Positions 21,527-61,042 of a DNA stretch of 64,000 bases are shown piece by piece. How positions within the stretch are numbered: position 1 is the first letter of the stretch; each line of letters opens with the position of its first letter. The notes under the pieces were generated by a model. It did no database searches. It saw only the letters and a list, made by a program, of their open reading frames with translations, and was not told the origin of the DNA. The translations under genes and the position numbers were made by a program. The stretch spans positions 4,745 through 68,744 of the forward strand of contig NZ_JBKDRI010000159.1 of NCBI RefSeq assembly GCF_046341535.1, in the 5' to 3' direction. The stretch is from Acidovorax sp. (GTDB lineage Bacteria; Pseudomonadota; Gammaproteobacteria; Burkholderiales; Burkholderiaceae_C).

Positions 21527-23059
21527 GTGTCTGCCCCGACCCCTGCCATGCCCCCACATTCACCCACCGGCATTCACCCAGCGCGCTGCGTGATGGTGCT
21601 TGGCACCTCCAGCGGAGCGGGCAAAAGCTGGCTTGCCACCGCCTTGTGCCGCTACTACAGCCACCTGGGCCTGCGGGTTGCTCCGTTCAAGGCGCAGAAC
21701 ATGAGCAACAACGCCCGGGTTGTCTCCAGCGCCAGCGGCCAGGGCGAGATCGGATCGGCCCAGTACTTCCAGGCGCTTGCAGCCCGCGCCGAGCCTGAGG
21801 TTCGCATGAACCCGCTGCTGCTCAAGCCCGAAGCCGACACCCGCAGCCAGGTCGTGCTGATGGGGCAGGTGAGCGCCGAGCTCACCGCCATGCCCTGGCG
21901 CAGTCGCAGCGAAGCAGTGTGGCCACAGATCGCTGCGGCGCTGGATGCTTTGCGTGCCGAGAACGACGTGGTCGTGATCGAAGGCGCAGGTTCCCCCGCC
22001 GAAATCAACCTGCACGCCAGCGATATCGTGAACATGCGTGTGGCACGCCACGCCGGGGCGCGTTGCCTGCTGGTGACCGACATCGACCGGGGCGGCGCCT
22101 TTGCCCACCTCTACGGCACCTGGGCACTCCTGCCCGAGACCGAACGCGCCCTGATCAGCGGCTTTGTGCTCAACAAGTTTCGTGGCGATGCCAGCTTGCT
22201 GGCCCCCGCCCCGCAGATGTTGCAGGACCTGACCGGTGTGCCCACGGTGGCCACCATCCCTATGCAGTGGCGTCACGGCCTGCCCGAAGAAGACGGCGTG
22301 TTTGACGACCGCACCCTGGCCGCAGGCCCGGTGCACACCACGGTTGCCGTGACTGCGTACCCGCGCATCAGCAACCTCGATGAATTCCAGCCCCTCAAGA
22401 ACGTGCCTGGCGTGCGGCTGCGGTGGGTGCGCAGCCCGGCGGACCTGTCCGATTTGAAGACCCCCGACTGGCTGGTGCTGCCCGGCTCCAAGTCCACGGC
22501 CGCCGACCTGGCCTGGCTGCGCGCTCAGGGGCTGGACGAGGCCATTGCCGCCCATGCAGGGCGGGGCGGTACGGTGCTTGGCGTGTGTGGCGGCCTGCAG
22601 ATGCTGGGCGAGGCACTGATCGACACCGCAGGCATCGACGGCAACGCGCCCGGCCTGGGCCTGTTGCCGCTGGTGACCACCTTCGAGGTGGCCAAGACCG
22701 TGCGGCGCACGCAGGTGCAGTTTGGCGCACTTCAGGGCCCTTGGGCCGCGCTGGCCGGTGTGAGCGTGGCAGGTTATGAAATCCACCACGGCCAGACCGT
22801 CCAGCACCCGGCGATGGCCGCCCGTGGCGATGTGGCCCTTGAGGTCGTCCCGGGCATCGCCTGGCAAAACCCGGCGGGCAATGTGCTGGGTGTGTACCTG
22901 CATGGTCTGCTGGAAGATCCCGCCGCCCTCAAGGCACTGTGGGGCCACGGCGCGGCACCCGTGCCCACGCTCGATTCGGTCTTCGAAGGCCTTGCCGAGG
23001 TTGCCGCCACGCACTTCACCGAGGGCTTTTTGCAGCGCCTGCTCCAGCCCGCAGCCTGA
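21527..23059 (+). CDS. cobQ: Cobyric acid synthase
   Basis: GTSSGAGKS, PFKAQNMSNN, EGAGSPAEINL, GVCGGLQMLG, GYEIHHG, GVYLHG. Confidence 0.95.
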   Translation: MSAPTPAMPPHSPTGIHPARCVMVLGTSSGAGKSWLATALCRYYSHLGLRVAPFKAQNMSNNARVVSSASGQGEIGSAQYFQALAARAEPEVRMNPLLLKPEADTRSQVVLMGQVSAELTAMPWRSRSEAVWPQIAAALDALRAENDVVVIEGAGSPAEINLHASDIVNMRVARHAGARCLLVTDIDRGGAFAHLYGTWALLPETERALISGFVLNKFRGDASLLAPAPQMLQDLTGVPTVATIPMQWRHGLPEEDGVFDDRTLAAGPVHTTVAVTAYPRISNLDEFQPLKNVPGVRLRWVRSPADLSDLKTPDWLVLPGSKSTAADLAWLRAQGLDEAIAAHAGRGGTVLGVCGGLQMLGEALIDTAGIDGNAPGLGLLPLVTTFEVAKTVRRTQVQFGALQGPWAALAGVSVAGYEIHHGQTVQHPAMAARGDVALEVVPGIAWQNPAGNVLGVYLHGLLEDPAALKALWGHGAAPVPTLDSVFEGLAEVAATHFTEGFLQRLLQPAA

Positions 23060-23112
23060 CCCCATGGCTTGCCGGGCCTTGCCGCAGCCCCATCATGCTT
23101 GCCTTGAACCTA

Positions 23113-23222
23113 TTGAGTCGGCACCTTTGAACTTGAACCAGCCGTTCGGGCTGAGCCTGTCGAAGCCTTGCGCAGAGCTTCGAACCGCATCAACGCATTC
23201 AAGTTGGTTGATGCCGACTCAA
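23113..23222. mobile_element. Hairpin MITE/REP-like element A (110 bp), TA-flanked
   Basis: 11-bp terminal inverted repeats TTGAGTCGGCA/TGCCGACTCAA each flanked by TA; internal CCGTTCGGGCTGAGCCTGTCGAAGC...GCTTCGA palindrome. Confidence 0.7.
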
Positions 23223-23224
23223 TA

Positions 23225-23450
23225 AAAACGGCAGTTGGATGCATTTGCCAGCGCTGCTTTTGGGGTGCCAGGCAAGGCGCGACGACGCGGCAGGCTCGCG
23301 CCTGCAAGGAGGAGCAACACCGCATGGCGCTCCAAAAGCGGTACTGGCAAGTGCATAGCGCTGTCACCCCCAAGGTGAGGCTGCAAAAACAACGCAAGGC
23401 CCGAGTCCACGCGGTGTGCGGCAAGATTAAAAGCGGTCAACTGCCGTTTT
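23225..23450. mobile_element. MITE-like element B (226 bp), TA-flanked
   Basis: 13-bp perfect terminal inverted repeats AAAACGGCAGTTG/CAACTGCCGTTTT flanked by TA; internal 32-bp stem and a 6-bp hairpin. Confidence 0.72.
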
Positions 23451-23591
23451 TAGGATGATTGAAGGTATTGCGAAGACTGTTCAAAACCGGGGTGATTCAC
23501 TTGCGGTTGAAGAACTGATTTGGTTCGAAATCCGGGTCTGAATTCATTGAGTGTGGCGAATGCTGTTGGTGCATCCGCCTGGCTCAGGCTA

Positions 23592-24377
23592 TCAACGATG
23601 AAGCTTGTTGACCGGCGATCTGACAAAGCTGGCGGCCAGCCCCAGCGTCGCGAGAGAAACGATGACACAGGCACCACTGGGCCAGTCCATAGTGCCCGAA
23701 ACCGCAAGCCCAACCCCACACGCCAGCATGATCGTCGCAGAACGTTGGAGAAGCCCCCAACCTTGCAGGCCAAGCCACGCAGGCACGATCAGAGCGGCAA
23801 ACACCAGCCACAAACCCAGCACGCCCACGGCCAAGCTGGCGACTACAGCAAACCATACGTAAAACGCCCAGTCGCCCCATGGAGCGGCCTGTTGCCAGCG
23901 TGCCATGACACTCTGCCAAGCGTAGCCCAGCATCACCAGTGAAGCCATGAGTCCGACTTGGGGCCAGTCGGCCCACAGGACATCGGCGGCCAGCAGTTCG
24001 CTCAGGTGTTCCCGTCCGTGTGGATCCTGGCTTGCCCCTAGCACGGACAGGCCAGCACCAAGCACGTACACCAGCCCGATGAGGGCTTCACGTTGAGCCG
24101 GGTGGCGGCGCGCTAGATGTTGCACCCAACCGACCGCCACCAGCGCCCCCACCAGCGCTGCACCACGCACACTCCAAGCGCCAGGGTGGTCCTGCCACCA
24201 GATCCACCACAATGCCGCAGCCGCTGCCGCTTGCGCCACAGCCAGATCGATAAACACCACACCACGGCGCAGCACCTGTTCGCCTAGTGGAGCTAGCGCC
24301 ATCAGACCCAAGCCCAAAGCGAGCAACGGAGGCAACCACCAAGGCAACGCCATCAACAAGTTTTCCAAGTTCATCAA
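23592..24377 (-). CDS. Metal ABC transporter permease (ZnuB/ABC-3 like)
   Basis: LGEQVLRRGVVFIDLAVAQ and REALIGLVY; multiple TM helices. Confidence 0.82.
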   Translation of the reverse strand: MMNLENLLMALPWWLPPLLALGLGLMALAPLGEQVLRRGVVFIDLAVAQAAAAAALWWIWWQDHPGAWSVRGAALVGALVAVGWVQHLARRHPAQREALIGLVYVLGAGLSVLGASQDPHGREHLSELLAADVLWADWPQVGLMASLVMLGYAWQSVMARWQQAAPWGDWAFYVWFAVVASLAVGVLGLWLVFAALIVPAWLGLQGWGLLQRSATIMLACGVGLAVSGTMDWPSGACVIVSLATLGLAASFVRSPVNKLHR

Positions 24378-46530: not shown

Positions 46531-46699
46531 CTAGGAGCCTGTCGGACTTGGAGCGTCGAAAGCGAATATCGGCCCCAGCGAGGACAGTTTTTGCCGAATT
46601 TGCAGCCCCATAGCCGAGCTATGGGGCAAAAAGGCGGTTCAAAATGGACCGCTGCGGTCGATTTGCAGCCGACGATTTCCAAGTCCGACAGGCTCCTAG
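46531..46699 (+). mobile_element. MITE family C, copy 1 (169 bp including CTAG flanks)
   Basis: 22-bp inverted repeats CTAGGAGCCTGTCGGACTTGGA; internal GCCCCATAGC-CGA-GCTATGGGGC hairpin. Confidence 0.88.
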
Positions 46700-48824: not shown

Positions 48825-48993
48825 CTAGGAGCCTGTCGGACTTGGAAATCGTCGGCTGCAAATCGACCGCAGCGGCCCATTTTTAACCGCCTTTTTGCCC
48901 CATAGCTCGGCTATGGGGCTGCAAATTCGGCAAAAACTGTCCTCGCTGGGCCCGATTTTCGCTTTCGACGCTCCAAGTCCGACAGGCTCCTAG
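48825..48993 (-). mobile_element. MITE family C, copy 2 (inverted relative to copy 1)
   Basis: Reverse complement differs from copy 1 at 4 of 169 positions; CTAG flanks. Confidence 0.88.
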
Positions 48994-59590: not shown

Positions 59591-60856
59591 GTGCCCCACA
59601 CCACGTCCGATTCGTCCCGCCCCGCGCCTGTGTCTGCGCCGGATCCGGGCCTGCAGCGCCGCGAGCTCTGGCTGCTGATCACGCTCGCTGGCGTGCAGTT
59701 CACGCACATCCTTGATTTCATGATCATGATGCCGCTGGGGCCGCAGTTCACCCGGCTGTTTGGCATCAGCGACGCGCAGTTTGGCTTGCTGGTGTCGGCC
59801 TACACGCTGGCCGCGGGCGCCTCGGGCCTGCTGGCGTCCACCTACATCGACCGCTTTGGCCGCAAGCGGCTGCTGCTGGTGCTTTACTCGCTGTTCGGTC
59901 TGGCCACACTGGCCTGCGGGCTCGCCCCGACGTACGGCTCGCTGATGGTCGCGCGCGTGCTGGCCGGTTTCTTTGGCGGGGTGTTGTCGGCCATGTCGCA
60001 GACCATCGTGGCCGACGTGGTGCCGTTTGAACGGCGGGGCCAGGCCATGGGGATCGTGATGACGTCGTTTTCGTTGTCCACCGTGGCCGGGGTGCCGTTG
60101 GGGCTGCTGCTGGCCCAGTGGGGCAGTTGGCACACACCGTTTTTTGCCATTGCCGCCATGGTCGGCATCCTGGCCGTGGTGGCGGCGCGCACCATGCCCA
60201 CGCTGTCGGCGCATGTGCATGCGGCCTCGGGCCGCTCCGCCATCCAGGGCATCCTGCAGGTGCTGGCCGATGCCAACCATCGCTGGGCGTTTGTGTTCAC
60301 CGCGCTGCTGATGTTCACCGGGTTTACGGTGATTCCGTACATCACCATTTACTTGCAGACCAATGCAGGGGTGCGCGCCGAGCAGATCCCGCTGGTCTAT
60401 CTGTGCGGCGGCGTGACGACGCTCTTCACGGCACGCCTGTTCGGACGCCTGACCGACCGCTACGGCAAGGTCCAGACCTTCAGAGCGCTGGCGCTGGGTG
60501 CAGCGCCCTGCCTGCTGGGGATCACCCTGGTGGCAGGCCATCCGCTGTGGGTGGTCCTGATCGTCTCCACGCTGATGTTTGCGATCGTCAGCGGACGCAT
60601 GATTCCGGGCATGTCCATCGTTGCATCGGCCGCCCAGCCGCAACTGCGCGGCACATTCATGACGCTCAATGCGTCGGTGCAGTCAGCCTCGATGGGCGTG
60701 GCCTCGGTGGTGGGTGGCCTGGTCATCAGCCGCGATGCACAGGGGCTGATGCAGGGCTACTGGATGTGCGCCGTGTTGGGCATTGCGGGGAGCCTGTTGT
60801 CGATGCTTGCCGTCGCACAACTGCACATGCACGGGGGCCCGGCCAGGCCGCGCTAG
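59591..60856 (+). CDS. MFS transporter
   Basis: DFMIMMPLG; motif A DRFGRKR; about 12 TM; start uncertain. Confidence 0.9.
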
Positions 60857-61042
60857 AGCCCGTCGGACTTGGAGCGTCGAAAGCGAGAATCGGCCCCAGC
60901 GAGGACAGGTTTTGCCTAATTTGCAGCCCCATAGCCGAGCTATGGGGCAAAAAGGCGGTGCTGTCGAAGAGCGGCGAAGGCAAAAAATGGACCGCTGCGG
61001 TCGATTTGCAGCCGACGACTTCCAAGTCCGACAGGCTCCTAG
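60853..61042 (+). mobile_element. MITE family C, copy 3 (190 bp; longer internal segment, decayed left end)
   Basis: Same body as copy 1 with 22 extra nt; left end CTAGAGCCCGTC...; the flanking TAG is the MFS stop codon. Confidence 0.85.

What the first reader, a model, noticed from the sequence alone, without database searches (positions are those of the whole stretch)
23110..23453. Two different hairpin elements stacked at one CTAG site: C-TA-[A]-TA-[B]-TA-G
Seen: C23110, TA, element A (11-bp TIR), a shared TA at 23223-23224, element B (13-bp TIR), TA, G23453. Removing both with one TA each restores CTAG. Established: IS630/Tc1-mariner-type transposases duplicate TA, and IS630 prefers CTAG. 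Inference: successive insertion of unrelated non-autonomous elements into one hotspot at the left border of the metal island.
Basis: partly seen in the sequence, partly recalled or inferred. Interest (0 to 1): 0.7.

Follow-up and report, generated by a model that had tools for sequence, protein, structure and literature searches.

The report
One small transposon nested in another's end
Two real, multi-copy miniature transposons sit here, but they did not land side by side in one CTAG site: the 110-bp IS630-type element jumped into the terminal TA of a 230-bp IS1380-type element, a spot it hits again and again across this genome.

Summary
The letters are exactly as described. Both elements are real non-autonomous transposons (MITEs).

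- **A** (110 bp) has at least 35 full copies, 27 of them identical. It duplicates TA, and its ends resemble IS630-family ISs of this genus.
- **B** does not duplicate TA. Genome-wide it is bounded by CCTA...TAGG (230 bp) and flanked by 5-bp direct repeats of the form N-T-N-A-N.
- Seven loci filled here are empty in the sister species and show one 5-mer and no CCTAGG.
- B's 17-bp end is identical to the end of an IS with an IS1380-like transposase, and that IS clade makes the same 5-bp duplications.

So the apparent "CTAG" is B's own termini. A is nested in the TA of B's terminal CCTAAAAA. That site takes 14 of 43 A copies or ends (about 11 distinct loci), over 100-fold above chance.

The two 5-mers around this copy do not match (TTGAA vs ATGAT). 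In the sister species the two flanks lie at different loci. The cobQ/metal-island junction is therefore secondary: recombination between copies or an assembly join. Reads could not be checked.

This is ordinary MITE biology, with a strong nested hotspot and a possibly undescribed IS1380-type MITE.

The parts
21527..23059 (+). cobQ-like gene (cobyric acid synthase type), whose 3' flank carries the elements
   Evidence: Pfam GATase_3 (3.4e-44) and CbiA. About 83-85% DNA identity to the same gene in other genus members.
23104..23108 (.). TTGAA: the 5-mer outside B's left end, where the left copy of B's target duplication should be. It does not match the right 5-mer.
   Evidence: G005 has TTGAA on both sides of CC-TA-[A]-TA-GG at this cobQ flank.
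23109..23112 (+). CCTA: B's left terminal four bases, cut off from the rest of B by A. The TA is the copy duplicated by A.
   Evidence: CCTA precedes AAAACGG in 60-65 of 70 B left ends. Empty sites lack it.
23113..23222 (+). Element A: 110-bp IS630-type MITE nested in B's terminal TA
   Evidence: 35 full copies, 27 identical. 29/33 are flanked TA/TA with target YTAR. Empty sites in G005 carry a single TA. Its ends resemble genus IS630 ISs.
23223..23224 (.). Second copy of the TA duplicated by A's insertion
   Evidence: Intact B copies read CC-TA-AAAACGG with one TA.
23225..23454 (+). Rest of element B (core plus right terminal TAGG). The intact element is 230 bp, CCTAAAAACGGCAGTTG...CAACTGCCGTTTTTAGG.
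   Evidence: The right part shares the rare variant GATTAAAAGCGG with the G005 copy at the orthologous znu-side locus.
23455..23459 (.). ATGAT: right copy of B's 5-bp target duplication at the metal-transporter side
   Evidence: G005 C542 reads ctcc-ATGAT-[B]-ATGAT-tgaaggtgttgcg, a perfect duplication.
23592..24377 (-). ZnuB-like permease, last gene of the converging metal-uptake operon. A and B lie in a tail-to-tail gap between it and cobQ.
   Evidence: Pfam ABC-3, and ZnuA for the next gene. No promoter- or terminator-like sites in 22950-23700.

Best explanation
The locus is a nested pair of MITEs.

Element B is a 230-bp non-autonomous derivative of an IS1380-like insertion sequence. Its ends are CCTAAAAACGGCAGTTG...CAACTGCCGTTTTTAGG. 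It inserts with a 5-bp duplication of an N-T-N-A-N target.

Element A is a 110-bp non-autonomous derivative of an IS630-family insertion sequence. It inserts at TA, preferring Y-TA-R, and duplicates that TA. A later inserted into the TA inside B's left terminal CCTAAAAA. This gives CC-TA-[A]-TA-AAAACGG...TAGG, which only looks like C-TA-[A]-TA-[B]-TA-G.

That terminal TA of B-type elements is a recurrent hotspot for A.

Shown: the boundaries, the duplications, empty sites for both elements, the hotspot statistics, and the similarity of both sets of ends to autonomous ISs.

Inferred: mobilisation in trans by those transposases, and that A's insertion disables this B copy by splitting its left end.

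The 5-mers flanking this B copy do not match (TTGAA vs ATGAT). In the sister species the two flanks belong to different loci. The present cobQ|metal-operon junction therefore arose secondarily, either by homologous recombination between two A/B-bearing loci or as an assembly join across them.
For: B boundaries and duplication:
- CCTA is present at 60-65 of 70 left ends and TAGG at 70-75 of 77 right ends. Beyond them both sides read N-T-N-A-N.
- 15 of 40 full copies have an exact 5-bp direct repeat just outside CCTA/TAGG. Shuffles give a mean of 2.05 and a maximum of 9 in 2000. None is an inverted match.
- Seven loci filled in this genome are empty in G005, with one 5-mer and no CCTAGG. Example: gtacccgcTTGAA[B]TTGAAcagagggc vs GTACCCGCTTGAACAGAGGGC.
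- Of 127 CCTAGG sites in the genome, none has flanking 5-bp repeats.

B's family:
- An IS with a PF13701 (DDE_Tnp_1_4) transposase sits in this genome at C72: TTGAA|CCTATTTTCCTCAGTT...AAAATAGG|TTGAA.
- 80 relatives of that transposase have ends of the type CCTA(A/T)n..CAGTTG and 5-bp duplications such as TTCAA, ATAAA, TTTAT, CTGAA and ATGAT.
- One end in L092 equals B's 17-mer exactly; L088, L114, L121 and L122 match 16/17.
- B and PF13701 are both confined to G000 and G005 among 26 relatives.

A:
- 29 of 33 copies are flanked TA/TA. One copy is flanked TG/TG, which is a direct repeat and so a duplication rather than part of the TIR.
- G005 empty sites hold a single TA.
- IS630-family transposases are present: NCBIfam IS630 at 247 bits for the C100 copy.
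- Their ends, TA|TTGATCCGGC..GAACTTGAA, match A's TA|TTGAGTCGGCACCTTTGAACTTGAA at about 22-25 of 32 positions.

Hotspot:
- 14 of 43 A copies or ends (about 11 distinct loci) lie in B-type terminal TAs, which make up 0.26% of all TA sites. Binomial P is about 5e-26.

Secondary junction:
- G005 has cobQ-TTGAA-CC-TA-[A]-TA-GG-TTGAA on one contig and ctcc-ATGAT-[B]-ATGAT-znu flank on another.
- The G005 left flank of that B is found in this genome on C14, which reads ATGAT-CC-TA-[A]-TA-B... and then ends.
Against: - No autonomous IS with ends identical to B's was found in this assembly. The resident C72 IS matches B's end at only 10 of 16 positions, and its transposase scores below NCBIfam's IS1380 cut-off (142 vs 180 bits).
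- No IS630 copy has ends identical to A's.
- Only 15 of 40 B copies keep a perfect duplication.
- The genome is a 203-contig metagenome assembly with many contigs ending in these repeats, so some junctions could be artefacts.
Confidence: 0.88

Rival explanations
1. A and B are both TA-duplicating IS630/Tc1-mariner-type MITEs that inserted one after the other into a single chromosomal CTAG hotspot. Removing each with one TA restores CTAG.
For: The letters fit. A really is TA-duplicating. G005 carries C-TA-[A]-TA-G after cobQ, which looks like the predicted single-element allele.
Against: B's empty sites show a single 5-mer and no CTAG or CCTAGG. CC/GG outside the TAs are as conserved as the element itself. 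The variable 5-mers beyond them match as direct repeats, not as a palindrome: 15 exact direct matches vs 0 inverted. No free N5-CCTAGG-N5 site exists among 127 CCTAGG sites. B's 17-mer including CCTA is the end of IS1380-like ISs. Both 'solo' CCTA|TAGG sites found in this genome (C85:19819, C99:58358), and the one after cobQ in G005, contain A, which points to secondary loss of the B core.
Confidence: 0.04
2. A and B form one composite element (A-TA-B) that moves as a unit. This would explain why they are adjacent at many loci.
For: A abuts a B end at 12-14 places with the same 2-bp TA spacer.
Against: A is found at either end of B and in both orientations. Most A copies (23 of 43) and most B copies (109 free B-type ends) are solitary. 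A copies are about 100% identical while the adjoining B copies differ by 4-8%. G005's orthologous B at the znu locus lacks A.
Confidence: 0.03
3. Sub-question on the mismatched flanks. The cobQ-A-B-znu adjacency is an assembly chimera: two loci both carry CC-TA-[A]-TA-B, and the assembler joined the wrong left and right sides.
For: C14 ends exactly where its 141-mer stops being unique (ATGAT-CC-TA-A-TA plus 24 nt of B). That flank is the ancestral left neighbour of this B in G005. Many contigs end in 141-nt repeat overlaps.
Against: The window contig runs unbroken through the shared node. The window's B has its own private variants. About 12 other B copies also have mismatched 5-mers, as real recombination among some 100 copies would produce. 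G005 shows alternative junctions too.
Confidence: 0.35

Closest known systems
RUP (repeat unit of pneumococcus), the IS630-Spn1-mobilised MITE of Streptococcus pneumoniae
   Same: About 107-110 bp, TIRs resembling an IS630-family IS, insertion at TA, around 100 copies, and a reported tendency to insert into other mobile elements (PMC2229807, citing Oggioni and Claverys 1999). Element A shares all of these.
   Different: No sequence relation and a different host (a Rhodoferax-like betaproteobacterium). A's preferred target is one specific TA in the terminal repeat of another MITE rather than IS bodies in general. A's interior carries a genus-wide roughly 42-nt repeat unit.
IS1380 family insertion sequences (e.g. 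ISEcp1; distant prokaryotic relatives of piggyBac)
   Same: By my recollection of ISfinder's family description, not checked here, the family has ends starting 5'-CC and 4-5-bp duplications. B has CC...GG ends and a 5-bp duplication. Its 17-bp end is identical to one end of an IS that encodes a PF13701 transposase. IS1380 transposases are used as the prokaryotic outgroup of piggyBac (PMC10813416).
   Different: B has no transposase (230 bp). The related transposases form a divergent branch: 142 bits against a 180-bit cut-off for NCBIfam IS1380. The marked N-T-N-A-N target rule was read here from the sequences, not taken from the literature. My two text searches found no paper describing IS1380-derived MITEs, which is weak evidence of absence.
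Nested MITE insertions and IS elements that target repeats (nested Stowaway/Tourist MITEs in plants; ISs that target REP sequences)
   Same: One small element repeatedly uses another repeat as its landing site.
   Different: Here the target is the 2-bp TA inside the terminal inverted repeat of an unrelated MITE family, in a bacterium. The plant and REP examples are recalled from general knowledge and were not checked here.

Membership tests
IS630/Tc1-mariner-type MITE (element A) | Insertion at TA with duplication of the TA | tested here: met
   29/33 full copies are flanked TA/TA and one is TG/TG, a direct repeat. G005 empty sites carry a single TA at C13:1933, C177:2555 and C105:2935. Intact B ends serve as paralogous empty sites.
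IS630/Tc1-mariner-type MITE (element A) | Terminal inverted repeats resembling those of an autonomous IS630-family IS | tested here: met
   A's end: TA|TTGAGTCGGCACCTTTGAACTTGAACC. IS630 ISs: G076 TA|TTGATCCGGCATCATTGAACTTGAATC; own genome C53 TA|TTGATCCGGCCTTTTCGCACTTGAATT. The transposase is NCBIfam IS630, 247 bits against a cut-off of 100. The ends are similar, not identical.
IS630/Tc1-mariner-type MITE (element A) | Small, non-coding, multi-copy | tested here: met
   110 bp; 35 full copies plus about 8 ends; polymorphic between two species.
IS630/Tc1-mariner-type MITE (element A) | Mobilised in trans by the IS630 transposase | not testable with these tools
   Needs a transposition assay.
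   Empty sites show a 5-bp duplication and no TA or CTAG. The TAs are internal to the conserved CCTA/TAGG termini.
IS1380-family-derived MITE (element B) | 4-5-bp target duplication | tested here: met
   15/40 exact 5-bp direct repeats vs 2.05 expected. Seven empty sites in G005.
IS1380-family-derived MITE (element B) | Ends identical or near-identical to an autonomous IS encoding an IS1380-type transposase | tested here: met
   CCTAAAAACGGCAGTTG matches 17/17 at one end of L092 and 16/17 in L088, L114, L121 and L122. The same clade gives N-T-N-A-N 5-bp duplications.
IS1380-family-derived MITE (element B) | The partner transposase is a bona fide IS1380 family member | tested here: inconclusive
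   The C72-type transposase passes Pfam DDE_Tnp_1_4 (67.6 bits, cut-off 34.7). IS1380 is its best NCBIfam hit but falls below the cut-off (142 vs 180). A second resident IS (C57) is a clear IS1380 member (309 bits) with ends CCTGAATCCGTGACC and duplication CTCAG.
IS5-family MITE (4-bp CTAG or 3-bp TNA duplication), considered for B | 3-4-bp duplication and GG/GA ends | tested here: not met
   The outer positions of the 5-mer also repeat directly (23/40 and 18/40). The ends start with CC.

The most novel reading that the evidence does not exclude
The terminal CCTAAAAA of the IS1380-type MITE is a specifically recognised landing pad for the IS630-type transposase, through sequence, bending or end structure. 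One MITE family would then systematically parasitise and disable another by splitting its terminal repeat. The identical A copies seeded at B ends would then drive deletions (solo CC-TA-[A]-TA-GG sites) and rearrangements in a reduced 3.3-Mb genome.
Probability: 0.3. Interest if true: 0.5.

Novelty: new member of a known kind. Interest (0 to 1): 0.33.

Why it matters
**Annotation.** The result corrects the reading of this locus and of the MITE families in this genome. The 'CTAG' signature does not show that all three abundant families are IS630-like. B is an IS1380-type MITE, a type I could not find described.

**Hotspot.** A more than 100-fold insertion preference of one MITE for the terminal repeat of another is documented here. 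This resembles pneumococcal RUP hitting IS elements.

**Caution for other claims.** Junctions across these repeats, including the 'border' of the neighbouring metal-uptake island, may be recombinant or assembly-derived. Claims about island borders in this assembly should therefore be treated with care.

Tried and rejected
- **Rfam:** only a sub-threshold hit (BcKCsr7, 19.7 bits vs 59), rejected.
- **Promoter/terminator scan:** nothing found.
- **Synteny downstream of cobQ in more distant genus members:** not conserved, so uninformative.
- **Following G005's cobQ-side right flank (C133) into this genome:** it runs into another repeated sequence, so the ancestral right neighbour of cobQ stays unknown.
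- **Mosaic test on the window's B:** differences from the G005 orthologue cluster in the left 100 nt (12 vs 3). Most of them are private to the G005 copy, so the mosaic cannot be assigned to this genome.
- **TIR scans of the own genome:** no full-length IS with B's or A's exact ends.
- **A first global-alignment attempt at the empty sites** gave unusable alignments and was replaced by flank-wise local alignment.
- **An IS5-type reading of B** (3-4-bp duplication) was considered and rejected.

Full report
**1. Observation**

The sequence is exactly as described: C23110, TA, A (23113-23222), TA (23223-24), B core (23225-23450), TA, G23453. The perfect terminal inverted repeats are 11 bp for A and 13 bp for B. 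The window lies on contig C159 of a 3.3-Mb, 203-contig assembly with 63.7% G+C.

Both elements are repeated:
- A has 35 full-length copies (27 at 100%, the rest at 98% or more), plus about 8 cut by contig ends.
- B has 44 full copies at 92-96% identity, plus about 60 partial ones, many at contig ends.

**2. Element A**

- 29 of 33 copies with both flanks are bracketed TA/TA. The restored target reads Y-TA-R: TTAG 10, CTAA 9, TTAA 9, CTAG 4.
- One copy is bracketed TG/TG. This is a direct repeat, as expected of a duplication rather than of part of the inverted repeat.
- Loci filled here are empty in the sister species G005 with a single TA. Example: cccttgatTA[A]TAagtgtccc vs CCCTTGATTAAGTGTCCC.
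- The genome encodes IS630-family transposases: Pfam DDE_3 and NCBIfam IS630 at 247 bits.
- Their ends, and those of 85-94% identical ISs in other genus members, read TA|TTGATCCGGC-N6-GAACTTGAA. A's end reads TA|TTGAGTCGGCACCTTTGAACTTGAA.

**3. Element B**

- CCTA on the left (60-65 of 70 ends).
- TAGG on the right (70-75 of 77 ends).

Beyond them both sides read N-T-N-A-N. In 15 of 40 full copies the two 5-mers are identical direct repeats (TTGAA, TTTAA, CTCAG, CTGAG, GTCAC and others). Shuffling gives 2.05 on average and at most 9 in 2000 trials. None is an inverted match.

The decisive test is the empty site. Seven B loci filled here are empty in G005, and each shows one copy of the 5-mer and no CCTAGG. 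Example: gtacccgcTTGAA[CCTA..B..TAGG]TTGAAcagagggc vs GTACCCGCTTGAACAGAGGGC. Conversely, none of the 127 CCTAGG sites in the genome has flanking 5-bp repeats.

B is thus a 230-bp element with a 5-bp duplication; the TAs are internal to it.

**4. B's family**

- The genome carries two ISs with Pfam DDE_Tnp_1_4 transposases.
- The one at C72 reads TTGAA|CCTATTTTCCTCAGTTACC...GGTAACTGAGGAAAATAGG|TTGAA.
- The C57 type is a clear IS1380 member (NCBIfam 309 bits). Its G005 copy has ends CCTGAATCCGTGACC and duplication CTCAG.
- Eighty loci encoding relatives of the C72 transposase were fetched. Several record titles name Rhodoferax or Comamonadaceae.
- These loci have ends of the form CCTA(A/T)n..CAGTTG and 5-bp duplications such as TTCAA, TTCAT, ATAAA, TTTAT, CTGAA and ATGAT.
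- One end in L092 equals B's 17-mer CCTAAAAACGGCAGTTG exactly. L088, L114, L121 and L122 match 16 of 17.
- Among 26 relatives, B and this transposase family are both confined to this genome and G005.

B is a MITE of this IS1380-like clade. A partner with identical ends was not found in this fragmented assembly.

**5. What the locus is**

Intact B ends read N5-CC-TA-AAAACGG. Here the sequence is TTGAA-CC-TA-[A]-TA-AAAACGG...CCGTTTT-TA-GG-ATGAT. A has inserted into the TA of B's left terminal repeat and duplicated it. The apparent CTAG is simply the outermost C and G of B's CCTA/TAGG.

This TA is a hotspot:
- 14 of 43 A copies or ends lie in B-type terminal TAs, at either end of B and in either orientation. 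Contig-end overlaps may reduce this to about 11 distinct loci.
- Such TAs are only 0.26% of the genome's 47,059 TA dinucleotides (binomial P about 5e-26).
- Six further A copies lie in other MITE contexts: two 'solo' CC-TA-[A]-TA-GG sites, and four inside or at the end of a third MITE family.

The behaviour resembles pneumococcal RUP, an IS630-Spn1-type MITE reported to land in IS elements (PMC2229807).

**6. The flanks**

The 5-mers around this B copy do not match (TTGAA vs ATGAT). In G005, where flanks are 93-94% identical to this genome:
- the cobQ end reads TTGAA-CC-TA-[A]-TA-GG-TTGAA, with no B core;
- the window's right flank lies on another contig as ctcc-ATGAT-[B]-ATGAT-tgaagg, a perfect duplication with a different left neighbour.

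That left neighbour exists in this genome on contig C14. C14 reads ATGAT-CC-TA-[A]-TA plus 24 nt of B and then stops. The window's B shares the rare variant GATTAAAAGCGG with G005's znu-side copy; only 2 of 73 B right ends in this genome carry it. Its right part is therefore orthologous to that copy.

Hence the cobQ flank and the metal-operon flank were not neighbours ancestrally. There are two explanations:
- two A/B-bearing loci recombined, which is plausible given about 100 B copies, identical A copies, and roughly 12 other B copies with mismatched 5-mers;
- the assembler joined them.

I cannot decide between the two; I put recombination or strain heterogeneity at about 55% and an assembly join at about 35%.

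A at the cobQ site is 100% identical in the two species while the flanks differ by about 6%. Parallel insertion into the same hotspot, or homogenisation, is therefore more likely than simple inheritance.

**7. Function**

The pair lies between two converging genes, cobQ and a ZnuB-like permease. No promoter- or terminator-like motifs were found. I infer no host function. The likely consequences are that this B copy is inactivated because its left end is split, and that the region supplies recombination substrates.

**8. Verdict**

The elements are new members of known kinds: an IS630-type MITE and an IS1380-type MITE, the latter possibly undescribed. The notable feature is a strong nested-insertion hotspot. 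Interest is modest.

Noticed in passing
window 46531-46699, 48825-48993, 60852-61014 (C159:51275, 53569, 65596): A third abundant MITE, 169 bp, with 107 full copies and ends CTAGGAGCCTGTCGG...CCGACAGGCTCCTAG. It sits twice inside B copies at a position where B normally reads CCAG, yet it is flanked CTAG...CTAG. One B copy carries CTAG at that position. Whether it duplicates TA or CTAG is unresolved. The stacked locus at 23110 cannot be used to favour TA. A is also inserted in this element's end (C10) and interior (C4, C34, C151).
   Followed up: partly
window 23138-23183 (A positions 26-71); own genome e.g. C106:2773-4570, C161:34961-35496, C71, C140, C1: A's interior (CCAGCCGTTCGGGCTGAGCCTGTCGAAGCC...) is 90-100% identical to a roughly 42-51-nt unit that forms tandem arrays in this genome. 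The unit is also abundant in most genus members that lack A itself. A therefore looks like IS630 ends wrapped around a captured genus-wide repeat.
   Followed up: no
own genome C17:35180-35611, C105:158-597, C129:87-429, C19:1-422: Tandem B dimers separated by exactly one 5-mer (B-TAGG-ATGAT-CCTA-B, and likewise with TTGAA and CTGAG). This is what re-insertion into the duplicated target next to an existing copy would give.
   Followed up: no
whole genome (G000) and sister species G005: These two genomes are 3.2-3.3 Mb and 98-99% complete, while most other genus members are 4-7 Mb. They alone carry blooms of A (identical copies in both), B and the IS1380-like transposases. This suggests genome reduction together with MITE expansion.
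   Followed up: no
own genome C72:10446-12176: A complete IS1380-like IS with a perfect 5-bp duplication TTGAA. The long ORF starts at an internal GVG codon and matches the family model only from position 49, and an upstream ATG lies in another frame. The transposase may therefore be frameshifted.
   Followed up: partly
own genome C85:19819-19928 and C99:58358-58467; G005 C341:30-139: 'Solo' sites reading N5-CC-TA-[A]-TA-GG-N5: a B footprint without the B core, always occupied by A. C85 has matching 5-mers (CTGAG/CTGAG). A possible origin is recombination between two A copies inserted at both ends of one B.
   Followed up: partly
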